Assembly: GCA_028825265.1 (NCBI GenBank)
Contig: JAPKAM010000004.1
Coordinates: forward strand, 333-64,332
Length of the DNA: 64,000 bases
Source of the DNA: Planctomycetota bacterium
GTDB taxonomy: Bacteria; Planctomycetota; UBA8108; UBA1146
Direction: 5' to 3'
In this document: positions 18,515 to 40,504 of the stretch, one piece after another
Numbering within the stretch: the first letter of the stretch is position 1
Layout of the letters: every line of letters begins with the position of its first letter
The notes under the pieces: model-generated
What the model saw: only the letters and a program-made list of their open reading frames with translations
What the model was told of the DNA's origin: nothing
Database searches by the model: none
Translations under genes and position numbers: made by a program

Positions 18515-20659
18515 ATGCGACCATCTAGAAGTCCCTGGAATCCCATTCCAAGCCCAAAGATGGAGACTCAATTGGACGTGCCAGAACGAGCACGAGGTGA
18601 GAGGCAGTCGAACTCTTCGGCGAGCCCTACCCGACTGGTCATCCGTGATATGGCGGGGGAACGCTATGTCACGCTCGATGGCGATACCATCTCGATCGGT
18701 CGCTCTCGCGATAACGACATAGAGGTGGGAGACATCTCATCTTCTCGTCAGCATTGCCAGATGAAGAGGATTCAGGGGCGCTGGCACATCGAGGACTTAC
18801 GTAGTCGAAATGGAACTCTCGTCAACGGGATCCTCATCCGCCGTCAACCCTTGATGGGGGGAGATCTGATCGAGATCGGCAAGACCCAGATCTTTTTTGG
18901 CGAAATTCCTGAACTGCATCGGGAGAATGCTCCAGCGGGAGAGACCCTGATACTCAGCACCGAGTACTTTCTCGAGCCGATCGCAGAAGAGGTCACCACC
19001 GAAGATCCGATTCGATTCCAGAAGGAACGAGAAATCTTCCTCCGATTACTCGAGTTGACCAGGGATCTCGGAGCCATCCTCGTGACAGAAGAATTGTTCG
19101 AAGTTATTCTTCAGAATATCATCGAGATTTCCGGAGCCGAGCGGGGATTCCTGATCATCGAGGATGATCAGGAATTACGGGTGGCTTCTTCTCGAAACAT
19201 CGACCGTGATGTGGTTCGAAGAGCTCATTTGCAGGTGAGCCAGTCTCTCACTCGAAGAGTGATCGATTCAGGTGAGCCGGTTCTGACTGGCGATGCTCGA
19301 AGTGATCCTCGTTTTCATGATTCTGCATCGATCGCAAATCTGCGGCTGGAATCGGTTCTGTGCGTGCCCCTCCGATTGCGCGGCAAGATTCTGGGGGCTG
19401 CATATGTCGATAATCGATTTGAAAAGCACTCCTTCCACCAGGGGACTCTCCGTTTCGTTCAGTTTCTTGCGGACCAAGCAGCGATCTATATCGAAAATGC
19501 CCGATTGTTCGAGGAACTGCAGCGTAAGCAGGAAGCGATCCAAACCTCCAAGGATCAGGTCGAGGCGCTGAACCGGGAACTACAGGCGATGTTGATCGCT
19601 CGCGACGTGGAACCCGAGGATGTCCGGGAATTGCTCAAGCGTGGAGCGCGACCTGATCTGAAGCACTCCTTTGATCGAATCGTGACTCGCTCTCCGGTCA
19701 TGATCCGGGTCTTCGAGTTGCTCGATCGCATCATCGATACCGACATGCCGGTGTTGATTCTTGGAGAAAGTGGAACCGGGAAGGAACTGGTGGCTCAGGC
19801 GATCCATGTTGGATCGGATCGAAGAAGTGACGCCTTTGTTTCCCAGAACTGCGCGGCGATCCCTGAGAACTTGCTGGAGAGCGAATTCTTTGGTCACGTC
19901 AAGGGCGCCTTTACCGGTGCTCATCGTGACAAGAAGGGTCTTTTCGAATTGGCCGACGGAGGGACTCTGTTCCTCGATGAGATCGGAGATATGAGTACAG
20001 ATCTTCAGGCGAAGTTACTTCGGGTACTCGAAGACGGGGAAATTCGTCCAGTTGGGTCTCGAGATACGATTCGCGTGAAAGTGAGAATCATCTCCGCCAC
20101 CAATCAGAAACTGGAAGAGATGGTTCGCAACGGTAAATTCCGTGAAGATCTCTACTACCGATTGAATGTGCTGACGGTTCAGTTGCCTGCACTGCGGGAA
20201 CGCCGCGAGGATATCCCTCTGCTGGTAGACCATTTCATCGATGAGGTTTGTTCCCGTCATGATCGGGAGCGCCCCAAGATGGATCCGAGAACTTTGTATG
20301 CGCTTTACCACAGCCCTTGGCCTGGAAATGTTCGACAACTGGAAAATGAAATAGAGCGACTGGTGGCACTCTCCGAAGGTGTCATCGTGCCAGAAACGAT
20401 TTCTCCATCGGTGTTGTCGCATGGCCCTACGGCCGGTTCGGGAAATCGGGAGCCGATGCGTGGCACACTTCGGGAACTGGTCGCTGAAGCGACCGAGGGG
20501 CTGGAACGGCAGGTCATCAGTGCGACCCTCGAGGAGAACTCATGGAACAAAAGCCAGACCGCCCGACAATTGGGAGTCTCCAGGCCAACACTGGATCAGA
20601 AGATCGAGAAGTATCAACTGAAGCGCAAATCAGAGACGGATGGGGAGAATCTAGCATGA
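18515..20659 (+). CDS. Sigma-54-dependent transcriptional activator with N-terminal FHA domain and GAF domain
   Basis: FHA (ISIGRSRDNDIEVGD...SRQHCQM...NGTLVNG), GAF, AAA+ (GESGTGKELVAQAIH, GAFTGA, ESEFFGH) and Fis-type HTH (QTARQLGVSRPTLDQKIEKY). The real start may be the internal M at 18560 or 18650. Confidence 0.8.
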   Translation: MRPSRSPWNPIPSPKMETQLDVPERARGERQSNSSASPTRLVIRDMAGERYVTLDGDTISIGRSRDNDIEVGDISSSRQHCQMKRIQGRWHIEDLRSRNGTLVNGILIRRQPLMGGDLIEIGKTQIFFGEIPELHRENAPAGETLILSTEYFLEPIAEEVTTEDPIRFQKEREIFLRLLELTRDLGAILVTEELFEVILQNIIEISGAERGFLIIEDDQELRVASSRNIDRDVVRRAHLQVSQSLTRRVIDSGEPVLTGDARSDPRFHDSASIANLRLESVLCVPLRLRGKILGAAYVDNRFEKHSFHQGTLRFVQFLADQAAIYIENARLFEELQRKQEAIQTSKDQVEALNRELQAMLIARDVEPEDVRELLKRGARPDLKHSFDRIVTRSPVMIRVFELLDRIIDTDMPVLILGESGTGKELVAQAIHVGSDRRSDAFVSQNCAAIPENLLESEFFGHVKGAFTGAHRDKKGLFELADGGTLFLDEIGDMSTDLQAKLLRVLEDGEIRPVGSRDTIRVKVRIISATNQKLEEMVRNGKFREDLYYRLNVLTVQLPALRERREDIPLLVDHFIDEVCSRHDRERPKMDPRTLYALYHSPWPGNVRQLENEIERLVALSEGVIVPETISPSVLSHGPTAGSGNREPMRGTLRELVAEATEGLERQVISATLEENSWNKSQTARQLGVSRPTLDQKIEKYQLKRKSETDGENLA

Positions 20660-23217
20660 GTGGCAGGATTCGCGTGAAGGACCTCGGTCGCAAGACTATC
20701 GTCAACATTTCAGATCAACCGATCACTGTCGGCCGGGACCCCGATTCCCGCATCGTGATCGGCGATCGAGCGGCTTCTCGTAAACATGGAGTGTTTAGTT
20801 GGGAAGGGAGTGACTTTGTCTATCAAGATCTCTCCTCATCCAATGGAAGTGTCCTGGCGGGAAAGAAGATCGATAAGGTGTCGCTGTCTCATGGAGACTG
20901 CATCTACATCGGAGATGCGGAGTTCCAATTGGAACTGTTGGACGGGGCCCCTCTCGATGACGAGACCGATCGAACGCCGATCGATGGTGTTGTTTCCTCA
21001 CGAGGGAACGATGCACCTACTGGCCCTGGCCTAGTTTATCAACATGAAGGTACCGATCAGTGGGTCCAGGCGGTCGGAAGGATCGTTGTCGGTCGCTCCG
21101 AGGAAGCCGATGTGACCCTAAATGACGGTCGAGTGTCATCCAAGCACGCCGTCATGCTCGAACAAGATGGATGCTGGTACATGGCCGATCTTGGCTCCGG
21201 AAACGGCATTGTGGTGGGACAAACAAAGGTCAAGAAACTTGAACTCACCGATGGTGTTCAGTTTCGAATTGGTTCCACGGAGTTCAAGGCGAGAGGCTTC
21301 TTGAACCGGGCACAACCCTCCAGGGATGGCGGGACAGCCGCTTCGATCTCGACTCGGTCTGTCGCGAATCGGGCTGTCTCGAATCGATCTTCTGCGAATC
21401 GGCCTGTCGCGAATCCAGCGGCGGAGATGACGGTGGGGCGAAGTACCCGGGTCGATGTCGGTTCGGAGGGTTCCCAGGGTCTCTTTACCATCGCCTTCAT
21501 CTTGGTACTGGGGGTGGTGCTCTACTCCGGTTACGGCTGGCTTCAAGACCTCGCGAGTAATCCTGACCTGGTGGTCCCGGAGGGGGATCGACTCTCCGGT
21601 GCTGGTCATTTTGAACTGGTTCCCCCTGGGCCGCTCGATGATGGTCCGTGGCGCTGGATCAGTGGTGAGGGTTCACTCGTTGTCGAGCGAGGGGAAGCGG
21701 CTCCCCACGGCCAGCAATGGCTCTCTTGTCGCGGCTCCTCCGATCCACGAGGTGTCATGCGACTCGAATATGACACCGTTTTCGAGGTGCAACAGGGACA
21801 AGGGTTACGCCTTAGTGCACGGCTCCAGAATACAGGATTCGATCGAATCGGACTGTCCGTCCGCTGGATTGAATCACGCGATGAGGGCGATCGAATTGTC
21901 GATGAGCAATTCTCTTCCTTGAAATCATCTTCCAACTGGAGTGGTCATGCTGCCGAGTTTGCCCCTCCGGTGGCGGGCAAGGGAGGTTCTGCAAGAGTCT
22001 CCGTGGTTGCATTGGGTCAAGGCAGAGAAATCCAGGTGGATCAAATGGTGATTCGCACAGTCGAAGCGCAGCGAGATCAACTGATTCATATCACCGCAGG
22101 AGATGCCGAACAGAAGATGGATCTTGCCATCGACGCCTCGGGAGTCGGCAAGTTGGTGCGCGGGCGGCAGGAGCTGATTTCAGATTTGCGGATCGCGATC
22201 GGTCCTCCAAGGAGCATGCCCTGGGGCCAACTTTTACCGATTCGCCGTGAGCAAATCGTCAGCGGCGATGATGGTTCCATCCGGCTTGGCTTCGAACTCG
22301 ATGAACAAGGACAAGGAAAAGTAGCGATTCAGCAGTTTGCCCGTTCGATCGGCTGGAAGATTGCTGCCAGTTGGACTCCGCAACGACCCACTCCGATGAT
22401 CCTGGTGGGAAGGGTGCCGATCCGAAGGGGTTCTTCACCGGTGCAAGTTTTTGCCGGCAGTAAATCCGTCGCAGTGGCGGATCGTTGGACCGATCTTGAG
22501 CCCTGTTCCGGGACAGAGATCTCGATTGGAATCGGTAACGATCAGATGGTTGCGACCTTTCAGCAGCCGATGATGTTCTCAGTGATCCCCGGTCAGGACG
22601 GTCGAGGTGCACTGTTGGTGGCCGATGCTGGAATCGTCATCGCTGGAGGTTCTCTCGATGTTTCATTCTCCGCCAGTAGCGAGCGCGAGCAATCCCGGGT
22701 GCTGGAGGCTCTCGCCGAGGTGAACCGAACGCTGGACGCGAGATCTGAGGGAGAGGCGGCTCAACTGATCCGACTGGCCCGAGCCGATTTCCCTTGGAGA
22801 GTGGACTTGGCCCGCAAACTGGACCTGATCGAAGAACGCATCGAGGTCGAAGTCGACGCTGCGCTGGGCCAGATCGCTGCCGTACTCGAAGATTCGAGGA
22901 AGTATCCAGGATCCTCAACCAGCATGTATTTGGAGAGAATTTGTCGCGAGGCGGTTGGTAGATTTGTCGGACTAGATCCCGCCCAGGAGTCGCAGCAGAT
23001 CCTGGATCAGCGCAAGAGTGCCAGTCAAAACGCAAATGACCGGATGGCCGTGGGGAAAGTCGAACTACTGCTGGCTCGTGGGCGATCCGCTCTAGGGAAA
23101 CATCGTTTCGAGATCGCTCGCTTCTACTTCCGCATGCTACTGGATCAGTATCCAGAATCTCCCGGTGCGGCGATCGCGGCTCAGGAATTAAAACTCATCA
23201 CTGCGAGGGGGGACTGA
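20656..23217 (+). CDS. Membrane protein with two N-terminal FHA domains and a large periplasmic domain
   Basis: FHA1 (ITVGRDPDSRIVIGD...SRKHGVF...SSNGSVLAG) and FHA2 (IVVGRSEEADVTLND...SSKHAVM...GSGNGIVVG). One TM helix (LFTIAFILVLGVVLYSGYGWL), then ~570 periplasmic aa. ATGA overlap with the upstream activator; the ORF track starts it earlier, at 20542. Confidence 0.65.
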   Translation: MSGRIRVKDLGRKTIVNISDQPITVGRDPDSRIVIGDRAASRKHGVFSWEGSDFVYQDLSSSNGSVLAGKKIDKVSLSHGDCIYIGDAEFQLELLDGAPLDDETDRTPIDGVVSSRGNDAPTGPGLVYQHEGTDQWVQAVGRIVVGRSEEADVTLNDGRVSSKHAVMLEQDGCWYMADLGSGNGIVVGQTKVKKLELTDGVQFRIGSTEFKARGFLNRAQPSRDGGTAASISTRSVANRAVSNRSSANRPVANPAAEMTVGRSTRVDVGSEGSQGLFTIAFILVLGVVLYSGYGWLQDLASNPDLVVPEGDRLSGAGHFELVPPGPLDDGPWRWISGEGSLVVERGEAAPHGQQWLSCRGSSDPRGVMRLEYDTVFEVQQGQGLRLSARLQNTGFDRIGLSVRWIESRDEGDRIVDEQFSSLKSSSNWSGHAAEFAPPVAGKGGSARVSVVALGQGREIQVDQMVIRTVEAQRDQLIHITAGDAEQKMDLAIDASGVGKLVRGRQELISDLRIAIGPPRSMPWGQLLPIRREQIVSGDDGSIRLGFELDEQGQGKVAIQQFARSIGWKIAASWTPQRPTPMILVGRVPIRRGSSPVQVFAGSKSVAVADRWTDLEPCSGTEISIGIGNDQMVATFQQPMMFSVIPGQDGRGALLVADAGIVIAGGSLDVSFSASSEREQSRVLEALAEVNRTLDARSEGEAAQLIRLARADFPWRVDLARKLDLIEERIEVEVDAALGQIAAVLEDSRKYPGSSTSMYLERICREAVGRFVGLDPAQESQQILDQRKSASQNANDRMAVGKVELLLARGRSALGKHRFEIARFYFRMLLDQYPESPGAAIAAQELKLITARGD

Positions 23218-24836
23218 TGGCTTACAAGGGACAGGTCACTGTTCTCGAGTTGAAGTCCCACCGCTGGCGTGCAGTCCATGTGCGTGGAATCGGGCATACC
23301 GTTGAGGTGGTCTCGGTTAACGAGGTGGAATCCCCCGCAGATGAAGACATCGGGGCATGGGTCAAGGAACTGACGACCAGAAAATTTCCGACCGGAAACA
23401 TTGTACTTCTGCTCGATGGAGAGAGTTCATCACTTCGCTACCATAGCGTGCCTCCGGTACCTTCCTGGCGGCTCGACCTGATCCTTCATTACGAGATCGA
23501 GGAGATCGCAGAAAAGACTGGTGATGCCCTCTCCGGGGGGCACATCGAACTGCTGGTTCCGGAGAGCCTATCCGAGGACACCTTGTTGCTGCTTGGGGTC
23601 GGGAAAGACTCGGTGATCCAGCCCCTCATCGACCAAATCCGGGAGGGCCATGGACAAGTGAAGTTGGCCTTGCCTTCTGCGATCGGAACTTTCCACGGAC
23701 ATCTCGCCAGTCACGGACCTGAGAGCGAAGATCAGACGGTCTTGCTGTGCGATGTGCAGGAGACTGAAACACAGGTGCTCGTGGTTCGGGAAAACCGATT
23801 ACTTTTTGCTCGAAGTGTCGGATTTGGTCTTCAAGGAATGGTCGATCTGGTCACCGAACGAACATCGGTTTCTGAAGCGAAAGCACGTCAGATGATCGCC
23901 GCATTCGTTTCGGGAGATCTGATCGATGGAGAAGAAGCGATGGTCGGCTGTCACCGCGGCTGGACCAGTCAGTTGGGGCAAATGCTCACGTCTTCTCTCT
24001 CCTTCTGTAAAGCTCAGCTGAAGATTGACGATGTCATCGCAGATCGAGTACTACTTTCGGGTATCGGAGCAGAGCTCGTAAGTCGATGCGATCAGCTCCG
24101 TCGATTGATGGATAAAGATCTAGAGGTGGTCTCCTTCGCGGGAACCGCTGGATCGCAGTGGACTCTGAATATAGGGACTGCAGCAGCAGCCCTCGATTCC
24201 GACGATCGAATTGTCGATCTGCTGCCCACTGCCGAGCGCAAGCGCAGAACGTTTCGAGACCACACACGCTTTTTGTGGGCCGGTGTTGCTGCGTTGGTTT
24301 TGGCCGTCGGATTGCAGGCGATGGATGTGTCTGTTTCTGCCGCACGCGCTACCGGTGCATCCCAAACGATTCGTCAGTGGCGCGGCGATATTTCCAACTG
24401 GCGGTCGGCAGAAGAAGATGCTCGAAAAAGTAACGATGTGTTCCGGAAAAGGGAGACCAGGATCATCCAGGAGATCGAGACGGGGAAGTTTTACTCGAAG
24501 ATCCTCGACCGACTTCGGCAGGATCTTCCCTCCGAAATCTCACTGGAGCAGATCAGCCTTCGCAGGGTTGTCGGCGATTCAGAGATCGGTATCGAGATCG
24601 AACTGATCGGCCAGGCGGACAATTCTCGACGTAATGGCCTCGAAGCCATCGAGACGTTGCAGGGTAACCTCGAGGGTATTCCTGGTGTTGAACGGGTTCG
24701 TTCCACACCTGAAGACCAGAAATCAGGCGCCTATCCATTCAGTATCTTGGTTTCTCCGGATGAAAAGTTGCCGGAGAAGAGTAACCGGGGTCCTGGCAAC
24801 CGTCGTAGGAAGTCACCGTTCGGGGGGAGAGGATGA
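23217..24836 (+). CDS. GspL-like / PilM-PilN fusion-like inner-membrane assembly protein
   Basis: Cytoplasmic actin-like segment (LLCDVQETETQVLVV...FARSVGFG...RVLLSGIGAEL), single TM helix (FLWAGVAALVLAVGLQAM) and a periplasmic coiled-coil domain. TGATG overlap with the upstream gene. Confidence 0.4.
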   Translation: MAYKGQVTVLELKSHRWRAVHVRGIGHTVEVVSVNEVESPADEDIGAWVKELTTRKFPTGNIVLLLDGESSSLRYHSVPPVPSWRLDLILHYEIEEIAEKTGDALSGGHIELLVPESLSEDTLLLLGVGKDSVIQPLIDQIREGHGQVKLALPSAIGTFHGHLASHGPESEDQTVLLCDVQETETQVLVVRENRLLFARSVGFGLQGMVDLVTERTSVSEAKARQMIAAFVSGDLIDGEEAMVGCHRGWTSQLGQMLTSSLSFCKAQLKIDDVIADRVLLSGIGAELVSRCDQLRRLMDKDLEVVSFAGTAGSQWTLNIGTAAAALDSDDRIVDLLPTAERKRRTFRDHTRFLWAGVAALVLAVGLQAMDVSVSAARATGASQTIRQWRGDISNWRSAEEDARKSNDVFRKRETRIIQEIETGKFYSKILDRLRQDLPSEISLEQISLRRVVGDSEIGIEIELIGQADNSRRNGLEAIETLQGNLEGIPGVERVRSTPEDQKSGAYPFSILVSPDEKLPEKSNRGPGNRRRKSPFGGRG

Positions 24837-25639
24837 TCCAGGAAATCTGGCAAAAAAACCGCAAGGTTTTGATTCAGGTGCTTTCAGCACTGGCGATTTT
24901 TCTGGTCGCTACTAATGTCACTAGCAGTTATCGAGCCGACCATGAAAAAAACCTGATTCGACATGAAGAGGACGCCCAACTGGTCGCACAGGATCTCGAG
25001 GGGCTCGAAGGTGTGGTCGATGTGGAGAGAAAATCTCGGACCGCCCTTGAGGATCGGAATCTGGATCTCCTTAAGAAACTGGGGATCTCTTTTTCAGCAA
25101 TTCATCAACCATCGGTGGATGAGGCATCTGTCAGTACTGATTTCAAGAGAGCCAAGGACCTGGTCTGGAACAACTTCAGGGACCAGGCCAATCGAGCTGG
25201 AATGGTGACTCCCGCCGAGATTCCGAATTTTGATGAGCGTTCTGATCTGTCATTGCTGGAATGGGCCGATCGGTATCGACTGCTGGAAGTTCTCGATCGA
25301 TTCACCAGGGTCTGCCTTCAAACCGGGGTTGCGCGCCTTGATGATGTGATCCCTGCGAAACGGCTGCAGGAGGCATTAGAAGATCCTAACAAGGTGCTCG
25401 CTCGTTATCCGCTCCACGTCAAGATGCTCTGCAAGCCCGAGCAATTGGTGGAGATGCTGCTTCGTTTTCAGCGCGACGGCGGATTCCTGTCACTAGAGCC
25501 GACAAGGGTGACCCAGGAAAAGTCCGGCGGTGAGAAAATCGAAGTGGATTTACTAGTTGTTGGAATTGACATGGAAGACCCTCGAGTCGACAGCGGCTCG
25601 ACTCGTCGGGGATCCGACCGTTCGAGGAGGGGATTCTGA
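24833..25639 (+). CDS. Bitopic membrane protein, GspM/PilO-like by architecture
   Basis: N-terminal TM helix (VLIQVLSALAIFLVATNV) plus a periplasmic domain. ATGA-coupled within the operon. Confidence 0.35.
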   Translation: MIQEIWQKNRKVLIQVLSALAIFLVATNVTSSYRADHEKNLIRHEEDAQLVAQDLEGLEGVVDVERKSRTALEDRNLDLLKKLGISFSAIHQPSVDEASVSTDFKRAKDLVWNNFRDQANRAGMVTPAEIPNFDERSDLSLLEWADRYRLLEVLDRFTRVCLQTGVARLDDVIPAKRLQEALEDPNKVLARYPLHVKMLCKPEQLVEMLLRFQRDGGFLSLEPTRVTQEKSGGEKIEVDLLVVGIDMEDPRVDSGSTRRGSDRSRRGF

Positions 25640-26025
25640 TGCGCTGGAACATCGAAAAGGGATTCTGTGTTATCTGCCTCGGGTTTTTACTCCTGAGTGT
25701 TCTGGGGCTAGCTAAAACCTACATCCTGGAAGATCCACTGGCGGGGGTCGATCTCAGGGTCCCTGAATCCAGTGATGGGGGAACTGTCGGAGGGCTGGTG
25801 AGGCTGGAGTGGTATGAACCGGCTCCCATAGAAATGGCCAGAAATCCATTCTCCAGTGTCAGCGAATGGAAAACTGCTCCAACAGATTTGTTGGGCGTGC
25901 CGCCCCTCAGTCCCGTACTACGCAGGGTACCGCTGCCGGCACTGGTGTCTGGCGACCCCAGGACCCGCCTTCGTGCCGAACTGGCGACTCCCGTAGCGGT
26001 CGAAGATGAGAAGGAGTCTCAATGA
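25639..26025 (+). CDS. Small bitopic membrane protein (GspC/PilP-like position)
   Basis: TM helix (FCVICLGFLLLSVLGLA) and a Pro-rich periplasmic tail. Translationally coupled at both ends. Confidence 0.3.
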   Translation: MRWNIEKGFCVICLGFLLLSVLGLAKTYILEDPLAGVDLRVPESSDGGTVGGLVRLEWYEPAPIEMARNPFSSVSEWKTAPTDLLGVPPLSPVLRRVPLPALVSGDPRTRLRAELATPVAVEDEKESQ

Positions 26026-28352
26026 CGAAGTGGTTCAGTTGCCTGCTCTTCATCGCCTTTCTACTGTTCCCACGGGCAGTTCTTGAAGGTCAAACGGCCA
26101 TCGATCTAGAGATCCGTGCCTACGATGTCATCGAATTGAATAATGGAAATCAGTTCGAGGGCAGGATCATCGCAGAGTTATCGAATTTGATTCAATTTGA
26201 AACTGCGGCGGGAAAAGTCACCTTCCCTCTTTCAGATGTCCGTAACATCTTCTACAGAAATCCTCCCGAAAAGGTCTACCAGACTCGGCTGCAGGATGGA
26301 TTTGATGAGTCTTCAGCTGCCGAGCAATTTGAAATCGGCAGATGGTGCCTGGATCCAGCAGTCGGACTGCTGGAGCAAGCCGTGAATCACCTGGAGATGG
26401 CCGTCCAACTCGATCCGACATCGGCGGCTCCTTACCAGCTGTTGATCCCCATCTACCAGCAAGACGATGCTCGCCAATTCCAGTCCACTGATCATGAAAT
26501 GACTGCCGATGTGGCGATGACGCAGACACTTCTGAAGGGTGTTCGTGCCAACATCGAGATCGAAGGTCTCTTCGAACTCACGGTCACCCAACTGATCCAG
26601 ATCGGCGAATCAGAAGCGGCCGTGTTGCTGTTGATGCGCCAGAGTGAAGGTGACGTCACGATTCCTTCCGTCGCGGCGGCGCTGAAAAAATTGGTGGTAC
26701 TTCTCGATGCACTGGGTCGTAGTGAAGAGTCGAGACAGGCCGCCAGTCGACTTCGCAAAGGCGGTGGTGGAAGCGATGTCGAGGTCTTGCAGCGAGAAAT
26801 TCGATGGGCGGTCCTCGACTATGCCGCTGGATCGCTGGATTCACGCGATGCGATCGAACAGTTGTTCGATGATCTGATCGCCGCGGGTGGTGCGGATGGG
26901 CAGAGTTATCTCTATCGTGGTACGGCTCGGTTACTCGACGATCAACTAGTACTGGCGCAAGACGACTTCAAGAAGGCTTTTCGGGCCGGAAGTGTCGATG
27001 CCATTGCTGCCACCACTTTTGCCCTCTCCTTCGCCAGGATGGGCGATTTCGACAAAGCACTAGGACTACTGGGGCCCGCTTCCGAGGGGGACCAGGTCAA
27101 CGTGGATTGGCGACTCGTGGAAGCCTACGTACTGGAATCTCAGGGAGAATCCAGGGCTGCGGTAGATCTCTATCAGGAGGCGACCGAGCAGGCTGAGGCC
27201 ACCTGGCAATCACGCCTGTTAAGCATCGAAGCGAGGCGGAGGCTAGATCCGAACTGGGATCCGACTTCGGATGTTGAAAAGGTCATGCGACACGACGTGC
27301 TGTCCTCCGCTGCTTTTGCCGAATGCGCACTGGTGCTGGGAGACCATGCTCTTTCACGAGGAAAACAGGCGGAAGCCAGACGTTGGTTGGAATACGCCGT
27401 TGCCAGTGGGCTCGACGGTTCTGATGTGATGCTTCGCCTCGGTCTCGCACAACGCGGACCGGGTGGTGATCCGAAGAGAGCGCGAGATGCACTGACTCTG
27501 GTGACGATAGATCAGCCAAAGAACCCCGACGGTTGGAATGCTCTGGCGGAGTTCCTCCATTCCAATGGTGAACTCGAAGACGCTCGTTTAGCCCTGCGGA
27601 AGTCGCTGGACCTGTTCCCTGAAAAGATGCGAGATAACTGGGCGCCCGATGCGCCGGCTCCTTTGCGCTGGGCACTGCGCGCTCAGCGACGAATCAATCG
27701 GACCCTTTCAGAAGAGTACTGGTACGATGATTTTGATCGAGCAAATGACTCTTCACTACAGAATAACTGGCGTGAAGAAGAAGCCTTTGGTGTCTCCGTT
27801 TCTCTCAAGGATGGCATGGCGATCATCGAAGGAGTCCAGAAACATCAACCGGACCGCTTGACCTCGATGAAACGTGAAATCCTGACTTCTCGTCTGACAG
27901 GATTTCGGTCGACACTTCGGTTATTGGCTGCTGGCACTGGCACGCGGATTGCATTTCGTGTGGAAGACCAATCGGGTGGTGGGCTGATCTTCTTCCGAGA
28001 TCCCGATGGTGTCCTTGGTTTCGCCCTTCTCGGGGGGAAAGAGATCAAGATGGTTCGCAGCGACGATGCCGAACAGGGGGAGGACTTTGGTTTGATTGAA
28101 ACCATCTGGTCGCCGGACGATCGTGCTCACCAGTTGGAAATCATTTTCACGCGGGAAGGCAAGGAGGGCGCCGAGTTGTGGTTTGACGGCATCCTTGTGG
28201 CGCGGGAAATTCCATATCGACCGGCCAGGAAGGCTGGCTTGACGGCTGGTTTTTCCGGTCAGGCTCCTCTCGATGAAAAATATCATCTGGCCATCGAGGA
28301 GTTCGAGGTGTTTCGCCGAAAGGCGGTCTCAATCAGGGAGCAGGAGTACTAG
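26022..28352 (+). CDS. Secreted TPR-repeat protein with C-terminal beta-rich domain
   Basis: Signal peptide (WFSCLLFIAFLLFPRAVLEG), multiple TPR-like helical repeats and a ~200-aa non-TPR C-terminal domain. Coupled within the operon. Confidence 0.5.
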   Translation: MTKWFSCLLFIAFLLFPRAVLEGQTAIDLEIRAYDVIELNNGNQFEGRIIAELSNLIQFETAAGKVTFPLSDVRNIFYRNPPEKVYQTRLQDGFDESSAAEQFEIGRWCLDPAVGLLEQAVNHLEMAVQLDPTSAAPYQLLIPIYQQDDARQFQSTDHEMTADVAMTQTLLKGVRANIEIEGLFELTVTQLIQIGESEAAVLLLMRQSEGDVTIPSVAAALKKLVVLLDALGRSEESRQAASRLRKGGGGSDVEVLQREIRWAVLDYAAGSLDSRDAIEQLFDDLIAAGGADGQSYLYRGTARLLDDQLVLAQDDFKKAFRAGSVDAIAATTFALSFARMGDFDKALGLLGPASEGDQVNVDWRLVEAYVLESQGESRAAVDLYQEATEQAEATWQSRLLSIEARRRLDPNWDPTSDVEKVMRHDVLSSAAFAECALVLGDHALSRGKQAEARRWLEYAVASGLDGSDVMLRLGLAQRGPGGDPKRARDALTLVTIDQPKNPDGWNALAEFLHSNGELEDARLALRKSLDLFPEKMRDNWAPDAPAPLRWALRAQRRINRTLSEEYWYDDFDRANDSSLQNNWREEEAFGVSVSLKDGMAIIEGVQKHQPDRLTSMKREILTSRLTGFRSTLRLLAAGTGTRIAFRVEDQSGGGLIFFRDPDGVLGFALLGGKEIKMVRSDDAEQGEDFGLIETIWSPDDRAHQLEIIFTREGKEGAELWFDGILVAREIPYRPARKAGLTAGFSGQAPLDEKYHLAIEEFEVFRRKAVSIREQEY

Positions 28353-28994
28353 ATGAACCCTTCACCACGAGCCGGATTCACCCTGGTCGAACTACTGGTG
28401 GTGATTGCCATCATCGGCGTTTTGGCTGGACTGGGTTCGAAGATGCTGAGCTTTGCCACCAAGAGCAGTGCCATCGGCCTGGCCGAACAGGAGATGCAAC
28501 GATTGGTGCTGGGCGTGGAAACCTATCAACTCGATTTCGGCGATTTCCCACCCAGTTCGATGGAGCAAGAGTACGAGATCTCCGGCAATGGTCTAGACGA
28601 GGGAAACGAGAGTTTGGTGGCCCATCTCGCCAGTCGCTCGAGAGGCCGGAGTTACTTCGAGTTCAAGGAGGAGTTTCTCGAGAATCTCGATGATGATCGT
28701 ATCGGTGATGCAGATCTCTATCAGCAGATGCGCTGGGTTTTCGGCGATGAACAACTGAGAGAATACGTAGATCCCTGGGGAGTTCCTTACGTCTACATTC
28801 ACAATAGAGATTACGGCATCGATTACTCTGTGACTCAAGAATCAGGCCCGATCAAGATCCACGCAGGGAATTCTCGTAAAACTGCGACCTATCATGAACC
28901 ACTTCGTTTCCAGATATGGTCAGCGGGGCCGGATGGTATTCACCAGATCGATGTCGATGATCCGGATGCCTCGGATGACGTGGCGCCATGGTGA
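28353..28994 (+). CDS. gspG: Major pseudopilin, GspG-like (type II secretion / type IV pilin-like)
   Basis: Class III signal RAG|FTLVELLVVIAIIGVLAGL with Glu+5, GspG 'DPWGVPYVY' motif, and C-terminal SAGPDG (cf. GspG GADG). 213 aa against a canonical ~145. Confidence 0.7.
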   Translation: MNPSPRAGFTLVELLVVIAIIGVLAGLGSKMLSFATKSSAIGLAEQEMQRLVLGVETYQLDFGDFPPSSMEQEYEISGNGLDEGNESLVAHLASRSRGRSYFEFKEEFLENLDDDRIGDADLYQQMRWVFGDEQLREYVDPWGVPYVYIHNRDYGIDYSVTQESGPIKIHAGNSRKTATYHEPLRFQIWSAGPDGIHQIDVDDPDASDDVAPW

Positions 28995-30376
28995 GAAGAA
29001 GTTTCGATTCGAATCACGGCGTGACCTTGATCGAGCTCCTGGTGGTGCTTTCGATCCTGTCGGTCATGCTCGGAATGTCGATGTCCGTTTTTCGGTCCTT
29101 CGGCGAGGCCCAGACGCTGGAGATCGCTTCCAGCAGCATCTCTACGACGGTCAGAGCTGCGCGGAACTGGTCGATCTCATCCGGGATGCAGAGCCGGATT
29201 CTGGTCGATCCAGAGCATCGTAAAGTGACCGCCTTCGGATTTCAATTGGCGGGTGCCTGGGGTTTCGAGGATTTTTACGGCCTTCCTGAAAAGCAGTTAT
29301 TGCCGCCGGGATCGGTGACCCTCGGTGCCTATCGCCAGCCAGCAGAACTGGTCGGCCAGGTGGAACCCTGTGCCGGATCGATCGGTCGAGGGGCGATGTT
29401 CGTCAACGATGGTGCCGCATTTCGTGCTCGTCGCCTGGCCAGTTACGAGGGTCGTAATGGGGTTTCCATCGAAGCGTGGGTTCATTTCTGGAAGCCGCCC
29501 TGGCGTCCAGAAGATGGAATTGAGCCGGATGGGGGCTTTTCCGATCCGCGGCGGGAGATGCGCATGGCCGTGCTTGGCATTCCCGATTCATTCGAGATGG
29601 GAATCCTCGGCGATGGCGCCGTTTACATGCAGATCGGTGATCCGCAGAGGGCCATCGATGGGCAATACATCCGCGCCCAGACGGAGGGATCTGCGGTCCT
29701 TGCGGATCGATGGGTACACCTGAGAGCCACTTTTGATTGTACCGAACTGATTCTCGAGGTGGACGGCGTCGAGCAGGCTTGGATTCCTGAGGGCTTCGAA
29801 ATGATCGAACAGTGGCCGCCATTACCCACTGCAATCCCTCACAGCGATTCCGATCTGTGGATTAGTCATCCCAATCGATTTTTCATGGGAGCCATCGATC
29901 AGGTGGTCCTGAGGGTGGCAACGACACCAGAGATCGTCGAATTGCCCATCGATATCGAACTGTTGGGTCCCACGACGCTGATTTATCTCGACAGCCGAGG
30001 GGCTCTCGATCCGTTGCTGCACAATTTCCCTGTGGTGATTCACGTGGCGGAGGTCGGAGATTTTTCTGAAATTGAAGCCGCAGATGGAACTGCAGTTGCA
30101 AAAGAAGGATTCAGGGATCGCATCGAACGAGAGCGACAGGAACAGGCGGCTAGAGACGGTGAGATCGTCCAGGCATTTGGCGATCCCATCTCGGATCTGA
30201 TGAAGCATCTGGAAGGCTGGGAAACCGATCCAGATGCTCTCATCGAAGAGGAAGAAGAGAAGAACCCGGTGCCATTGACTCCAGGAATGCACTACGGAAT
30301 TGGCGATGTGGATGGAACATCAGTGCTTCGTCTTCATAACATCGTGATTGATATGACGGGAGCTATTCGTGGTTAA
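28988..30376 (+). CDS. Large pseudopilin-like protein (GspH-like position)
   Basis: Prepilin N-terminus NHG|VTLIELLVVLSIL with Glu+5. 462 aa. Confidence 0.5.
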   Translation: MVRRSFDSNHGVTLIELLVVLSILSVMLGMSMSVFRSFGEAQTLEIASSSISTTVRAARNWSISSGMQSRILVDPEHRKVTAFGFQLAGAWGFEDFYGLPEKQLLPPGSVTLGAYRQPAELVGQVEPCAGSIGRGAMFVNDGAAFRARRLASYEGRNGVSIEAWVHFWKPPWRPEDGIEPDGGFSDPRREMRMAVLGIPDSFEMGILGDGAVYMQIGDPQRAIDGQYIRAQTEGSAVLADRWVHLRATFDCTELILEVDGVEQAWIPEGFEMIEQWPPLPTAIPHSDSDLWISHPNRFFMGAIDQVVLRVATTPEIVELPIDIELLGPTTLIYLDSRGALDPLLHNFPVVIHVAEVGDFSEIEAADGTAVAKEGFRDRIERERQEQAARDGEIVQAFGDPISDLMKHLEGWETDPDALIEEEEEKNPVPLTPGMHYGIGDVDGTSVLRLHNIVIDMTGAIRG

Positions 30377-33300
30377 GCCAGAGAGAAATCTTGAACGAGG
30401 AATGGCCTTGTTGATGGTCATCCTGGTGCTCTCCGCGCTGGCAGCGATCGGTACTCCGTTTGTGATTTCGATGAAACTTCAAGAAAGAGGTGCCGCTCGG
30501 GCAATCGCACAGCAGCACGCACAACTCGCTGCGCAAAGTGCCAGAGGACATGCTCTTAGCCGATTGTTCGATACTCATCATAGTCGAGAACGAGATCGCT
30601 GGCGCCCCGGAGTGGAGGCTCCTGACTTGGTCGATGGACTGGACGAATTGAAAGTCGACTTTCCTGGTGTGATCACAACTGTACCTGTGGTCGGTACACC
30701 TCCGGAGGATTTTCAAATTCGAGGTAATTCTCAGGTGATCCTCGATGCTCGCGTGACTGACGAGCAGGGCAAGATCAACATCAACTCTGCGATGCCTAAT
30801 CTCATGGGCAACTTGTTGGCCGGGAGTCATCTGTCCGAAGCGATCAGCTATGAAACGGATCTGGGAGAGTTGCCACTCGACGACACCTCTTCTTTTCCCG
30901 CGGATGATGATCCGGAGACGATTGATGGTGTCGTCGTGATCCTCAATCCGATCTTCTTCACTGTCGAGGCGATTTCATACACTGGAAAAACTGAAACAGC
31001 GTTGACCGGGATCTTCAGGGGACAATACCTGTCGGGGACATGGGAGCACCAGAAAGGTTGGCCAGTCTTCGACCTTCGTGGGTTGAAGGTCTTCTTGCAT
31101 CGGCTCGCCAATCTCTCTGACGGTGAAATCGCGACCTTCCGTACTCCGATTGGAATCCGTCAGATTGCCGATTGGTCGGTGGTTCCCTATTTCCTCAAGA
31201 CCCTGGCAGTGGTGGGGCTCAATTTCAAGAACATGGCGGAATGGGGTCTGACCACAGAGATGCTGGTGCGTGCGGGGATCGATCCATCCTTGCTCCAGGG
31301 GGATACAGAACAAGTGGATGAAGCGGAATATCGTAAAGCACGAAAGATGTTTCTCGATAATAACATCCCCAAGGATGTGGTCGATCTGGTCGAGTCGATT
31401 CGTGGAAAAGCTGCGGTGATCGAAGCGGCTGAGGTGGTCGCGGGCTTTGGTCTGACCAAGGCCAGGGGGAATGCATTCAAGGGTGTCTATCTGACCTTCA
31501 TCGCACCGGAGCTGAAGAAGATCAAGAAGAGGGGCAAGAGTTATTTCCCCAGCGCCATCCTCGCTTACCAGGAAATTTTTGATCTCCCCGGAATGGAAAC
31601 CTTTTCAGCTTTTGAGTTTGAGCAAATCCGCGACCTGATCACGACCACCTCGACCCAGCCGAGGGCATGGTCGCAGGAACAGATGGTCGAGGGAGAGATC
31701 ACCGATAGTGCGCTACTCGGAGTCCCGCAGATGCGTCTGCCACGGTATGACTTCTTCAATCCTGGAACTGTGGTGAGAATCCGCAGCATCGATGATCCCT
31801 CGAAGGTTGAATATGGACTCGCTGCGGGGGCTTTCCCGACTCCTCGGGGAGGATTCCGGGGATTGGGAGCTGGCTCCATCTTTCAGGGCGGTGTGATTCT
31901 CAAGGAACCCTTGAAATATCAGTGGGGCGAGCGCGAGGCGATGGTTAGTGCCGCACTTCGGCATCCGGTCAACATCAATACCGCCCCTCGTAGGGTCCTC
32001 GAAGCGGTCTTGACCGGGCTCTCCACCGATCGGTTCGAGGCACGATTCAACGGAGTGACCGTCGAAGAAGCGCGTGGATTGACCGACCTCCTGATGGAAG
32101 CGATGCCGATTTCTGGTTTCGCCGCTTTGCGGGAGGTGGTGGAAGCCGCTCAGATGAGTGGCGTCCTCGATGGCGGTGATTCCGAAGCGATTCTCATTAA
32201 CGCACTGAACCCAAATCAGCCACGACTCTCCATCTCCACCACGGGATTTTGTTACGCCACTTCTGAGATCTACACCGTTGAATCGACCGGAGTGGCCAGG
32301 AGCCCGGTGGGTACTCCTCAAGCGACGGTTCGCCTTCGTGAGGTGATCGAGGTTGCACCTCCGGATCCGCTTTCGCTAAGGCTGGAAACGCAGGAGGACT
32401 GGTCTTCCATCTTTCTCACACGTAATTCGAGCGGTGGGATGTTCTCTCGATTCAACACGACTTTCGTCCCCGGTCGGGCGTCGAACCTGGTGATCAGTGG
32501 TCCGATCCCTCTCAACCGTCGCAAGTTCACCGGGCCTTCTCTCGATGAAGGAACTCTTCGTGGAGCGACCATCTCGTATGATCGAGATTCAGGGAACTAC
32601 GGTTTCGGCTCGGTCGGCTTGCTGGATGTCGAGCACTTTAGCGAAACCATCGAGGGGTATGAACTGGAAGACGGTTCCTGGAAGCGATCGATTCTCCTCC
32701 AGCAAGAAACCGAACCGACTCGGGGCCGAGGACGCAGGGGGGCGGCGCCTGATCCCCAAGTTTTGGATCAAAATTCGACTGAAGACGCCCTTTCGACCAT
32801 CCCTGCGATGATTGATTTCTGGTACCGCCCGCGCTGGGGCTCGCGAAGTGGAAACCGAATTATCTTCGATACCGTGGGCCCGACCCTGGATCGATATCGT
32901 GATCGTGTGCGATTGTTCTTCTCCGGGGATACACAGGAACTGGTGCTGCAGGTCTTTGATGAGACCGGATCTGCAGTGGCGTGGGATACCAATGTTCTAC
33001 CTGCGGCAGAGGTTCGGCACTCGGTCACGACCATCAACTTTGCAGATGACACCTGGTATCACATCTCTGCGGGATGGAGATCGACGAGGCCTGGAGATCT
33101 GGTGCTGATGATCGATCGTCGGCCGGTCGGTCGTCAGTCCTGGTTGTCACGCCTCAATGGTGCGCTTTCATTCTCGGGCAATCGTGTTTCCATCGTCGAT
33201 GGTGACATGGCGACCCGGTTCCCCCCGATGGGCACCTTGCTGGTGGGTTCTGAAGCGATCGATTACTCGGGTCGGGAAGGGGCTGCCTTCATCGTCAGGT

Positions 33301-40463: not shown

Positions 40464-40504
40464 AACTTACAACCTGCCCATCCCCGTTCGAGAGAGGAAA
40501 CTTC

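What the first reader, a model, noticed from the sequence alone, without database searches (positions are those of the whole stretch)
23217..26025. GspL/GspM/GspC-like inner-membrane trio inferred from architecture only
23217..24836 has a cytoplasmic actin-like region with PilM-like motifs, one TM helix and a periplasmic coiled-coil domain, which is the GspL = PilM+PilN layout. 24833..25639 and 25639..26025 are bitopic proteins with N-terminal TM helices in GspM/PilO- and GspC/PilP-like positions. Sequence similarity is too weak to call by eye, so these may be a very divergent platform-accessory complex.
Basis: inference. Interest (0 to 1): 0.55.

Follow-up and report, generated by a model that had tools for sequence, protein, structure and literature searches.

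The report
Divergent pilus-assembly platform genes, planctomycete
Three back-to-back genes in a marine planctomycete genome encode very divergent inner-membrane scaffold proteins of a pilus or secretion machine: a PilM-PilN fusion, a PilO-like protein resembling Akkermansia's Amuc_1100, and a small anchor protein that is not shown to be GspC or PilP.

Summary
The three ORFs are real, translationally coupled and under strong purifying selection (dN/dS about 0.08).

- **ORF1 (23217-24836)** is a PilM-PilN fusion. It has a full PilM-type actin-like domain (Foldseek top hits PilM, E 1e-18; family profile vs PDB PilM, 5e-11). A retained INLLP-like linker (VDLLP), one TM helix, a coiled coil and an alpha-beta-beta x2 periplasmic domain follow. 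It has the GspL layout but does not match GspL by sequence. Its nearest named relative is Akkermansia Amuc_1101 (hhalign 97.6%).
- **ORF2 (24833-25639)** is a bitopic PilO/GspM-superfamily protein. Its best structural match is Amuc_1100 (E 4e-7), followed by PilO. Eleven of 79 family members hit Pfam T2SSM_b.
- **ORF3 (25639-26025)** shows no detectable GspC or PilP homology. It is a proline-rich, membrane-anchored protein with an invariant R[ND]PF motif. In two distant lineages an equivalent module forms the N-terminus of the downstream TPR protein.

The trio sits in a deeply conserved operon: sigma-54 activator, 2xFHA membrane protein, the trio, a TPR protein and five pilin-like genes. No ATPase, platform protein, secretin or prepilin peptidase lies in the window.

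These are new members of a known kind, of modest interest.

The parts
18515..20659 (+). Sigma-54 enhancer-binding protein (FHA-GAF-AAA+-HTH_8), the likely regulator of the cluster
   Evidence: Pfam Sigma54_activat 3e-72, GAF_2 3.5e-17, FHA 1.8e-16, HTH_8 4.4e-13. It holds the same position in L002, L004, L027 and the P0092 contig.
20542..23217 (+). Bitopic membrane protein with two cytoplasmic FHA domains, one TM helix (aa 309-335) and a ~550-aa periplasmic region of unknown fold. The true start is probably near 20656. Its stop overlaps the ORF1 start by one base.
   Evidence: Pfam FHA 7e-29 with two stretches. TM scan and junction sequence. The periplasmic part has no PDB sequence match. Conserved upstream of ORF1 in all long loci.
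23217..24194 (+). ORF1 aa 1-326: PilM-type actin-like (ASKHA) cytoplasmic domain
   Evidence: Family profile vs PDB: M. xanthus PilM 4.9e-11, T. thermophilus PilM 2.7e-10. Foldseek top 10 are all PilM, E 1e-18 to 1.4e-16, TMt 0.60-0.76. hhalign to Amuc_1101 97.6%, E 3e-12.
24207..24248 (+). ORF1 aa 331-344, RIVDLLPTAERKRR: linker carrying the PilN N-terminal INLLP-like motif followed by basic residues
   Evidence: V333, L336 and P337 are invariant in the 20-sequence alignment A1. The same motif occurs in L026, L027, P0021 and Amuc_1101, and it aligns to INFLPWRQQRR of E. coli HofN.
24267..24344 (+). ORF1 aa 351-376: single transmembrane helix (N-in)
   Evidence: Kyte-Doolittle scan. It lies inside the continuous helix 338-436 of the AF2 model.
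24345..24755 (+). ORF1 aa 377-513: periplasmic coiled-coil helix followed by a beta-beta-alpha-beta-beta core (PilN-like ferredoxin-type domain)
   Evidence: AF2 secondary structure: H338-436, E441-452, E457-468, H474-486, E493-498, E505-513. Colinear but weak hhalign to HofN, a member of Pfam PilN: 12.5-13.9%, E 0.002.
24833..25639 (+). ORF2: bitopic PilO/GspM-superfamily protein of the Amuc_1100 type. TM helix aa 11-31, coiled coil, helical region, and an alpha-beta-beta-beta-alpha-beta-beta core at aa 141-248. It ends in a disordered Arg-rich C-terminal tail.
   Evidence: AF2 pLDDT 80.8. Foldseek: Amuc_1100 3.8e-7 to 1.4e-4 (TMt 0.63-0.71); PilO 3jc8_Oa 3.4e-3, 5uvr 9e-3, 2rjz 1.4e-2. Profile A3 vs PDB: PilO 2.3e-4, Amuc_1100 7e-4. 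hhalign A3 vs Amuc_1100 94.4%. 11/79 members hit T2SSM_b.
25639..26025 (+). ORF3: small membrane-anchored (aa ~8-27), proline-rich periplasmic protein. Conserved motifs are GG.VGG.VR.EW, R[ND]PF (aa 68-71, nt 25840-25851) and RR.PLP (aa 95-100, nt 25921-25938).
   Evidence: Alignments A4 and A5. 13 Pro in 97 periplasmic residues and dN/dS 0.076. No Pfam, NCBIfam or PDB hit. An equivalent module is fused to the TPR protein in L001 and L111.
26022..28352 (+). Periplasmic TPR protein (776 aa, own signal peptide) with a C-terminal beta-rich domain. It has no secretin domain. It is the likely partner of ORF3.
   Evidence: Pfam TPR_16 2e-13 and others; NCBIfam PilW 3.5e-7, below cut-off. No similarity to the TPR+secretin protein Amuc_1098. 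Homologous to the L001 TPR protein, E 6e-6.
28353..28994 (+). GspG-like major (pseudo)pilin, prepilin motif G|FTLVE
   Evidence: N_methyl 1.6e-8; TIGR01710 GspG 8e-11, below cut-off. N-terminus read.
28988..30376 (+). GspH-like minor pilin with a Laminin_G_3 domain, G|VTLIE
30369..36092 (+). Giant (1907 aa) GspK-like minor pilin, G|MALLM, with no Glu at position 5
   Evidence: NF037980 T2SS_GspK 2.4e-10, below cut-off. N-terminus read. Orthologues of 1870-2070+ aa in L002, L004, L027 and the P0092 contig.
36005..37596 (+). Two further pilin-like genes. The first (36005-37174) probably starts at Met30, G|MTLIE. The second is 37171-37596, G|FTLLE, GspI/PilV-like.
   Evidence: N_methyl hits; NCBIfam PilV and GspI hits below cut-off; N-termini read.

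Best explanation
The three genes encode the inner-membrane accessory ('alignment') subcomplex of a type IV filament machine (type IV pilus / type II secretion class) in a marine Planctomycetota lineage.

ORF1 is a covalent PilM-PilN fusion. Its cytoplasmic PilM-type actin-like domain would dock the machine's ATPase and platform protein. The linker keeps the PilN N-terminal INLLP-like peptide (VDLLP) that in two-gene systems binds PilM. Then follow one TM helix, a periplasmic coiled coil and a PilN-type ferredoxin-like core.

ORF2 is the PilO/GspM-type partner, of the Amuc_1100 subtype known from Akkermansia. It would pair with the PilN half of ORF1 through the parallel coiled coils and cores.

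ORF3 sits where PilP or GspC would sit, but it is not demonstrably either. It is a short membrane-anchored, proline-rich linker with an R[ND]PF motif. In two distant lineages an equivalent module is the N-terminus of the downstream TPR protein. It most likely tethers the periplasmic TPR protein to the platform.

Shown here: gene reality, the folds and homology of ORF1 and ORF2, operon conservation, and the fused state of the ORF3-like module with the TPR protein. Inferred: all protein-protein contacts, the role of ORF3, and the function of the filament. The motor ATPase, the PilC/GspF platform, the prepilin peptidase and any secretin must be encoded elsewhere in the genome.
For: ORF1, PilM half:
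- Family profile vs PDB PilM 4.9e-11 and 2.7e-10.
- AF2 model pLDDT 81.6.
- Foldseek top 10 are all PilM, E 1e-18 to 1.4e-16.
- hhalign to Amuc_1101 97.6% over 376 columns, including the TM helix and coiled coil.

ORF1, PilN half:
- VDLLP plus a basic stretch is invariant in the family.
- hhalign to HofN is colinear but weak.

ORF2:
- AF2 model pLDDT 80.8.
- Foldseek top hit Amuc_1100 at 3.8e-7, with PilO further down.
- Family profile hits PilO at 2.3e-4 and Amuc_1100 at 7e-4.
- hhalign to Amuc_1100 94.4%.
- 11/79 relatives hit T2SSM_b, 3 hit T2SSM and 2 hit PilO.
- One relative carries a precomputed PF28028 Amuc_1100 hit.

Gene order: it parallels Akkermansia Amuc_1101 then Amuc_1100.

Context:
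- Five genes with class III (prepilin) signal peptides lie downstream.
- Junctions are translationally coupled.
- dN/dS is about 0.08 for all three genes.
- The same operon occurs in loci whose ORF2 is only 20-35% identical.

ORF3-TPR link: TM + x[SN]PF + Pro-rich module at the N-terminus of the TPR protein in L001 and L111. The alignment is colinear and beats 99 of 100 shuffles.
Against: - The window protein itself scores below the curated cut-offs of PilM models: Pfam 13.6 vs 27 bits, TIGR01175 20.9 vs 133 bits.
- The PilN assignment rests on a motif, topology and a predicted fold; sequence support is weak (hhalign 12.5-13.9%).
- No ATPase, PilC/GspF, prepilin peptidase or secretin is present in 64 kb, or within 10 kb of the operon in relatives. 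The identity of the machine (pilus vs secretion pseudopilus) and its completeness are therefore unknown.
- The phosphate-1 motif of the actin fold looks degenerate (LELKSHRW versus GLDIG in relative P0021), so nucleotide binding is uncertain.
- ORF3's role is inference only. The similarity to the fused N-termini is statistically weak (hhalign E 0.13).
- The AF2 models come from shallow 20-sequence alignments.
Confidence: 0.75

Rival explanations
1. The trio is a bona fide, very divergent type II secretion GspL/GspM/GspC set: ORF1 = GspL, ORF2 = GspM, ORF3 = GspC contacting a secretin.
For: ORF1 has the GspL domain layout. Relatives of ORF2 hit T2SSM_b, T2SSM and once GspL_C. The downstream pilins look like GspG, GspH, GspK and GspI. 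The gene order L-M-like, then a small bitopic protein, fits.
Against: ORF1 matches PilM rather than GspL. There is no T2SSL or GspL_C Pfam hit, no GspL chain in the Foldseek top 50, and hhalign to E. coli GspL gives 0.5% (N-terminal half) and <=1.5% (C-terminal half). ORF1 also retains the PilN INLLP-like motif. ORF3 shows nothing of GspC: hhalign 0.1% and no Pfam hit. No GspD, GspE, GspF or GspO is nearby.
Confidence: 0.1
2. ORF3 is a minimal PilP: a membrane anchor plus the disordered R[DN]PF-containing segment that binds the PilN-PilO pair. It has lost the C-terminal beta-domain that normally binds the secretin and instead uses a proline-rich tail to hold the TPR protein.
For: R[ND]PF is invariant in the 17 stand-alone ORF3-family sequences and degenerate in the fused L001 N-terminus. 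E. coli HofP, the fourth protein of the HofMNOPQ set, carries RDPF just after its signal sequence, and this is the only stretch hhalign aligns. ORF3 is encoded directly after the PilO-like gene, as PilP is. From memory only: PilP's N-terminal disordered region binds PilNO.
Against: The match is four residues (hhalign 1.3%). There is no Pfam PilP hit for any of the 18 members. The motif degenerates to ASPF and ESIF in the fused forms. Amuc_1099, at the equivalent position in Akkermansia, is unrelated and lacks the motif.
Confidence: 0.3
3. ORF1 is an FtsA/MreB-like cytoskeletal or division protein unrelated to pili, and the neighbouring genes are coincidental.
For: FtsA structures follow PilM closely in the Foldseek list (E 2e-15 and weaker). 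Relatives carry weak FtsA and MreB_Mbl Pfam hits.
Against: PilM ranks first by both sequence profile and structure. FtsA lacks a TM helix followed by a periplasmic PilN-like domain. ORF1 is translationally coupled to a PilO-like gene and lies in an operon with five pilin genes that is conserved across distant relatives.
Confidence: 0.03

Closest known systems
Type IVa pilus alignment subcomplex PilM-PilN-PilO-PilP (P. aeruginosa, M. xanthus, T. thermophilus)
   Same: The ORF1 N-domain is the PilM fold. The linker keeps the PilN INLLP-like motif, followed by a TM helix, coiled coil and alpha-beta-beta x2 core. ORF2 has the PilO topology and matches PilO structures and sequence. The gene order M, N, O, then a small anchored protein is the same.
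   Different: PilM and PilN are one polypeptide here. ORF2 has an extra helical region and an Arg-rich tail. There is no recognisable PilP beta-domain and no secretin gene after the set; a TPR protein follows instead. A 2xFHA membrane protein is coupled upstream. The pilins look T2SS-like (GspG, GspH, GspK).
Akkermansia muciniphila Amuc_1098-1102 cluster (MUL2 locus; Amuc_1101 PilM-like, Amuc_1100 'pili-like' PilO/PilN-like protein)
   Same: ORF1 is homologous to Amuc_1101 across the PilM domain, TM helix and coiled coil (hhalign 97.6%; NCBIfam NF045709 6e-5). ORF2's best structural match is Amuc_1100, with hhalign 94.4%. The adjacency and order are the same. The literature describes Amuc_1100 as structurally PilO/PilN-like and the cluster as pilus-related (bioRxiv 10.64898/2025.12.30.696933; PMC5332112; PMC13174399).
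   Different: Identity is very low (10-19%). ORF3 (128 aa) is unrelated to Amuc_1099 (337 aa). Akkermansia has a TPR+secretin fusion, Amuc_1098, next in line, whereas the planctomycete TPR protein has no secretin domain. The pilin complements differ. The FHA proteins and sigma-54 activator are absent from the Akkermansia locus as read here.
Type II secretion GspL-GspM-GspC
   Same: The overall architecture of ORF1 matches GspL: an actin-like cytoplasmic domain, one TM helix and a ferredoxin-like periplasmic domain. The ORF2 family overlaps Pfam T2SSM_b and T2SSM. The associated pseudopilin-like genes are GspG, GspH, GspK and GspI-like.
   Different: No sequence or top-ranked structural match to GspL. 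ORF3 shows no GspC HR or PDZ features. GspD, GspE, GspF and GspO are not in the cluster.

Membership tests
PilM (Pfam PF11104 / TIGR01175) | Actin-like ASKHA fold most similar to PilM structures | tested here: met
   Foldseek top 10 are PilM chains, E 1e-18 to 1.4e-16, TMt 0.60-0.76. Family profile vs PDB PilM 4.9e-11 and 2.7e-10.
PilM (Pfam PF11104 / TIGR01175) | Score above the curated family cut-off | tested here: not met
   Window protein: PilM_2 13.6 bits vs cut-off 27; TIGR01175 20.9 vs 133. Eight more distant family members do carry precomputed PF11104 hits, and one is named PilM by NCBI.
PilM (Pfam PF11104 / TIGR01175) | Binds the N-terminal INLLP peptide of PilN; binds ATP | not testable with these tools
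   The motif is present in cis (VDLLP). The phosphate-1 motif appears degenerate in this lineage. Neither binding was tested.
PilN (Pfam PF05137) | INLLP-like N-terminal motif, basic stretch, one TM helix, coiled coil, ferredoxin-like core | tested here: met
   Motif and TM helix. AF2 topology H338-436 then beta-beta-alpha-beta-beta.
PilN (Pfam PF05137) | Detectable sequence homology to PilN family members | tested here: inconclusive
   No Pfam PilN hit. hhalign to E. coli HofN, a PF05137 member, gives 12.5-13.9%, E 0.002, colinear over 105-112 columns.
GspL (Pfam PF05134 T2SSL, PF12693 GspL_C) | Sequence or structural match to the GspL cytoplasmic and periplasmic domains | tested here: not met
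   No Pfam hit at E<=0.1. hhalign vs E. coli GspL 0.5% (N-terminal half), 1.5% and 0.8% (C-terminal half). No GspL chain in the Foldseek top 50.
GspL (Pfam PF05134 T2SSL, PF12693 GspL_C) | Domain layout: actin-like cytoplasmic domain, TM helix, periplasmic ferredoxin-like domain | tested here: met
   AF2 model and TM scan.
PilO / GspM superfamily (PF04350, PF04612, PF10741) | N-in bitopic protein with a coiled coil and a two-fold alpha-beta-beta core | tested here: met
   AF2 model. Foldseek PilO hits: 3jc8_Oa 3.4e-3, 5uvr 9e-3, 2rjz 1.4e-2 to 2e-2.
PilO / GspM superfamily (PF04350, PF04612, PF10741) | Sequence homology | tested here: inconclusive
   The window protein alone has no hit. The family profile hits PilO at 2.3e-4. 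11/79 relatives hit T2SSM_b (best 3.5e-8), 3 hit T2SSM and 2 hit PilO. The link is transitive, not direct.
Amuc_1100 family (Pfam PF28028; partner of the Amuc_1101 family NF045709) | Similarity to Amuc_1100 structure and sequence, and adjacency to an Amuc_1101-like PilM fusion | tested here: met
   Foldseek 3.8e-7, TMt 0.63-0.71. hhalign 94.4%, E 9e-8. Profile vs 6kny 7e-4. Gene order as in L036. PF28028 is not in the local Pfam copy; one relative carries a weak precomputed hit. ORF1 vs NF045709 scores 22 bits against a cut-off of 650, so this is not an equivalog.
GspC / PilP | HR (homology region) beta-sandwich domain that binds the secretin N0 domain | tested here: not met
   No Pfam, NCBIfam or PDB sequence hit for ORF3 or its 18-member family. 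hhalign vs E. coli GspC 0.1% and HofP 1.3%. 13 Pro in 97 periplasmic residues.
GspC / PilP | Membrane or lipid anchor and a gene position after the PilO/GspM gene | tested here: met
   Hydrophobic segment aa 4-31 and a start overlapping the ORF2 stop.
GspC / PilP | Cognate secretin encoded with it | tested here: not met
   No Secretin domain anywhere in the 64-kb window or in the flanks of related loci. The next gene is a TPR protein without a secretin domain.

The most novel reading that the evidence does not exclude
This widely conserved planctomycete operon may encode a variant type IV filament machine in which PilP and its contact with a secretin are replaced. In the replacement, a membrane-anchored proline-rich linker (ORF3, R[ND]PF motif) is coupled or fused to a large periplasmic TPR protein. 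A 2xFHA transmembrane protein and an FHA-GAF sigma-54 activator would put assembly under Ser/Thr-phosphorylation control. Such a machine, related to the Akkermansia MUL2 pilus locus implicated in mucin acquisition, might serve macromolecule capture or uptake into the planctomycete periplasm rather than classical twitching or secretion.
Probability: 0.15. Interest if true: 0.6.

Novelty: new member of a known kind. Interest (0 to 1): 0.3.

Why it matters
Two 'hypothetical proteins' of an uncultured marine Planctomycetota lineage now have an assignment: a PilM-PilN fusion and an Amuc_1100-type PilO/GspM homologue.

The result also shows that Amuc_1100, which is heavily studied as a probiotic effector, belongs to a broad inner-membrane platform family. 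About 100 clusters at 50% identity were found, and the family reaches into Planctomycetota within a conserved operon. This supports reading Amuc_1100 as a PilO-like assembly component.

A natural PilM-PilN fusion that still carries the INLLP-like peptide, sitting next to T2SS-like pseudopilins, is a useful comparison point for the proposed origin of GspL from PilM plus PilN.

The ORF3/TPR fusion pattern gives a concrete, testable hypothesis for how this variant platform is linked to the rest of the envelope.

None of this would greatly surprise a specialist in type IV filaments.

Tried and rejected
- **Single-sequence searches.** Pfam, NCBIfam and PDB searches of the three ORFs gave only sub-threshold PilM hits for ORF1 and nothing for ORF2 or ORF3.
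- **ORF3 homologue search.** A search with a 4-sequence profile found only the same narrow lineage (15 clusters, no Pfam). The ORF3 family profile had no PDB hit and no Pfam PilP or GspC hit even at E<=10.
- **ORF3 vs Amuc_1099.** Only the TM segment aligned (2.6%).
- **TPR protein vs the Akkermansia TPR+secretin Amuc_1098.** No similarity, so the TPR protein is not a hidden secretin.
- **Related-loci scans.** The search for related loci with the diverse ORF2 alignment failed for lack of conserved stretches. The scan with A1 recovered only close marine Planctomycetota MAGs.
- **Defence-system models.** PADLOC gave nothing relevant.
- **Sigma-54 promoter.** A perfect -24/-12 consensus at 27938-27952, 400 bp upstream of the GspG-like gene, is absent from all orthologous loci and is probably chance.
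- **2xFHA protein.** Its periplasmic part has no PDB sequence match.

Full report
**Observation**

The window is a chromosomal contig of a marine Planctomycetota MAG. ORF1, ORF2 and ORF3 are identical to NCBI proteins OSB09_00900, _00905 and _00910, all annotated 'hypothetical'. The three ORFs lie exactly where stated: 23217-24836 (539 aa), 24833-25639 (268 aa) and 25639-26025 (128 aa).

They overlap each other and their neighbours by 1-4 bases, and each start is preceded by a G-rich Shine-Dalgarno-like stretch. Against the 82-86% identical orthologues in locus L004, dN/dS is 0.083, 0.073 and 0.076. All three are therefore real genes under purifying selection. Each has one hydrophobic segment: ORF1 aa 351-376, ORF2 aa 11-31, ORF3 aa 4-31.

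**ORF1**

Alone, ORF1 gives only sub-threshold hits:
- Pfam PilM_2, E 0.033;
- TIGR01175 pilM, 1.5e-4;
- NF045709 'Amuc_1101 family PilM-like pilus complex protein', 6e-5.

Its family is narrow, with 21 clusters: 19 at 50-82% identity besides the query's own cluster, and one at 29%. A profile of 20 members (A1) hits solved PilM sequences at 4.9e-11 (M. xanthus) and 2.7e-10 (T. thermophilus), well ahead of FtsA and MreB.

The AlphaFold2 model (pLDDT 81.6) shows:
- an actin-like domain at aa 1-326;
- one continuous helix at aa 338-436, containing the TM segment and about 60 periplasmic residues;
- a beta-beta-alpha-beta-beta unit at aa 441-513;
- a disordered basic tail.

The Foldseek top 10 against the PDB are all PilM (E 1e-18 to 1.4e-16, TM-score to target 0.60-0.76), followed by FtsA. 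No GspL chain is in the top 50.

The linker RIVDLLPTAERKRR (aa 331-344) carries V333, L336 and P337, which are invariant in A1. It aligns colinearly with the INFLPWRQQRR start of E. coli HofN, a Pfam PilN member. The alignment continues through the TM helix to the 'LP.E..L' motif at the start of the core. Its significance is low, however (hhalign 12.5-13.9%, E 0.002). hhalign to E. coli GspL gives <=1.5% for either half.

ORF1 is therefore a PilM-PilN fusion. It has the layout of GspL but is not a GspL-family member.

**ORF2**

No Pfam, NCBIfam or PDB hit was found for the single sequence or for its close family. The AlphaFold2 model (pLDDT 80.8) has an N-terminal TM and coiled-coil helix (aa 2-57), further helices, and an alpha-beta-beta-beta-alpha-beta-beta core at aa 141-248.

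Foldseek results against the PDB:
- ranks 1-10 are all Amuc_1100 of Akkermansia muciniphila (E 3.8e-7 to 1.4e-4, TMt 0.63-0.71);
- PilO follows, with 3jc8_Oa at 3.4e-3, 5uvr at 9e-3 and 2rjz at 1.4e-2.

An exhaustive profile search of 1.84 billion representatives found 100 relatives, nearly all 260-290 aa. A 79-member alignment (A3) gave these results:
- PilO of M. xanthus at 2.3e-4 and Amuc_1100 at 7e-4 in the PDB sequence set;
- hhalign to full-length Amuc_1100 at 94.4%, E 9e-8, starting from the TM helix;
- 11 members matching Pfam T2SSM_b (best 3.5e-8), 3 T2SSM, 2 PilO and 1 GspL_C;
- one member carrying a precomputed PF28028 'Amuc_1100' hit.

ORF2 is a PilO/GspM-superfamily protein of the Amuc_1100 type.

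**Comparison with Akkermansia**

I fetched the Akkermansia locus (L036). Its genes are:
- Amuc_1102, 238 aa;
- Amuc_1101, 612 aa, PilM_2 4e-31;
- Amuc_1100, 317 aa;
- Amuc_1099, 337 aa;
- Amuc_1098, 906 aa, TPR + Secretin.

The ORF1 family aligns to Amuc_1101 at 97.6% (E 3e-12) over 376 columns, including the TM helix and coiled coil. The pair ORF1-ORF2 therefore corresponds to Amuc_1101-Amuc_1100.

Published work describes this cluster as pilus-related (PMC5332112). It is also called the MUL2 locus, conserved in Verrucomicrobiales (PMC13174399). Amuc_1100 is described as structurally PilO/PilN-like (bioRxiv 10.64898/2025.12.30.696933).

**ORF3**

Its family is confined to the same lineage (15 clusters, no Pfam). 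A broader alignment (A5) adds the orthologues from L026 and L027. It shows a TM segment and the conserved motifs GG.VGG.VR.EW, R[ND]PF and L..PP....RR.PLP.

No support for GspC or PilP was found:
- no Pfam hit to PilP or GspC at E<=10 for any member;
- no relevant PDB hit;
- hhalign 0.1% to E. coli GspC, and 1.3% to HofP, where only RNPF aligns to RDPF;
- only the TM segment aligns to Amuc_1099.

The periplasmic part has 13 prolines in 97 residues, which argues against a compact beta-sandwich.

Two distant loci have no separate ORF3. Instead their TPR protein is longer and begins with the same kind of module:
- L001: 927 aa, TM ... ESIF ... LPTPPLPPLSVRRP;
- L111: 873 aa, TM ... ASPF ... ELPPDDLEVPPVPP.

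The L001 alignment is colinear (63-99 vs 62-98). Its score was reached by 1 of 100 shuffles (hhalign E 0.13). This is suggestive rather than strong evidence. The fusion pattern makes ORF3 most likely the detachable membrane anchor and linker of the TPR protein. A 'mini-PilP' role for the R[ND]PF segment remains possible but rests on a four-residue motif.

**Context**

The trio sits in a + strand operon with these members:
- a sigma-54 activator (FHA-GAF-AAA+-HTH, 18515-20659);
- a 2xFHA protein with one TM helix and a ~550-aa periplasmic part (20542-23217);
- the trio;
- a 776-aa TPR protein with no secretin domain (26022-28352);
- five genes with prepilin-type N-termini: GspG-like, GspH-like with LamG, a 1907-aa GspK-like giant, and two more.

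The same order recurs in loci whose ORF2 is only 20-35% identical. These include a 1.86-Mb contig, and even the neighbouring Peptidase_S13 gene is conserved.

No PilB/GspE, PilC/GspF, prepilin peptidase or secretin gene lies in the 64-kb window or in the 10-kb flanks of relatives. As in Akkermansia, those parts must be elsewhere.

**Mechanism**

The following is inferred from the families involved:
- the PilM domain of ORF1 engages the ATPase and platform on the cytoplasmic face;
- its PilN half and ORF2 pair in the membrane and periplasm;
- ORF3 ties the TPR protein to this platform;
- the FHA proteins and the sigma-54 activator provide regulation.

The folds, homologies, operon conservation and fusions are shown here. 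All contacts and the biological role of the filament are inferred.

**Verdict**

ORF1 and ORF2 are divergent new members of known families. The ORF3/TPR arrangement may be a variant worth testing. Interest is modest.

Noticed in passing
window 20542-23217 (+): An 855-891 aa protein has two cytoplasmic FHA domains, one TM helix (aa 309-335) and a large periplasmic region with no PDB sequence match. It is translationally coupled to ORF1 and conserved upstream of it in every long related locus. Its layout recalls YscD/TagH-type FHA scaffold proteins of other secretion machines.
   Followed up: partly
window 18515-20659 (+): A sigma-54 enhancer-binding protein with an unusual FHA + GAF input module sits directly upstream and is conserved with the operon. 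This suggests phospho-threonine-dependent control.
   Followed up: partly
window 27938-27952 (+): The only perfect TGGCAC-N5-TTGC (sigma-54 -24/-12) match in the window lies inside the TPR gene, 400 bp upstream of the GspG-like pilin gene. It is absent from all orthologous loci, so it is probably chance.
   Followed up: yes
window 30369-36092 (+): A giant 1907-aa protein has a GspK-like prepilin N-terminus (G|MALLM, no Glu5) and otherwise no recognised domains. Orthologues of 1870-2070+ aa exist in related loci. It may be a tip adhesin fused to a minor pilin.
   Followed up: no
window 24756-24833 and 25580-25636 (+): Both ORF1 and ORF2 end in disordered, conserved Arg-rich periplasmic tails (...RRRKSPFGGRG and ...RRGSDRSRRGF). 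Of 79 ORF2-family members, 60 have >=5 Arg/Lys in the last 25 residues. ORF1's tail contains KSPF, reminiscent of ORF3's RNPF. The function is unknown.
   Followed up: partly
window 26022-28352 (+); L001 3398-6181; L111 1854-4475: The TPR protein has a conserved C-terminal beta-rich domain (about aa 560-776) with no family assignment. In L001 and L111 it also carries the ORF3-like TM and Pro-rich module at its N-terminus.
   Followed up: partly
L036 11913-14633 (Akkermansia Amuc_1098): The Akkermansia secretin is itself an N-terminal TPR + C-terminal Secretin fusion. The planctomycete operon has a TPR protein without a secretin domain at the same position.
   Followed up: partly
window 15662-16888 (-): A 408-aa ORF with no Pfam hit lies between the M19 dipeptidase and the S13 D-Ala-D-Ala carboxypeptidase. 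It is conserved in synteny (414 aa in L002/L003, 408 aa in L004).
   Followed up: no
window 23241-23270 (ORF1 aa 9-18): The phosphate-1 motif of the actin fold is degenerate in this lineage (VLELKSHRW, versus GLDIGEG in the distant relative P0021). The PilM domain may therefore not bind nucleotide.
   Followed up: no
window 40271-41908 (-) vs 40445-41776 (+): Two long ORFs overlap on opposite strands. Only the + strand one has domain hits (Vgb_lyase/NHL beta-propeller), so the 545-aa minus-strand ORF is probably spurious.
   Followed up: partly
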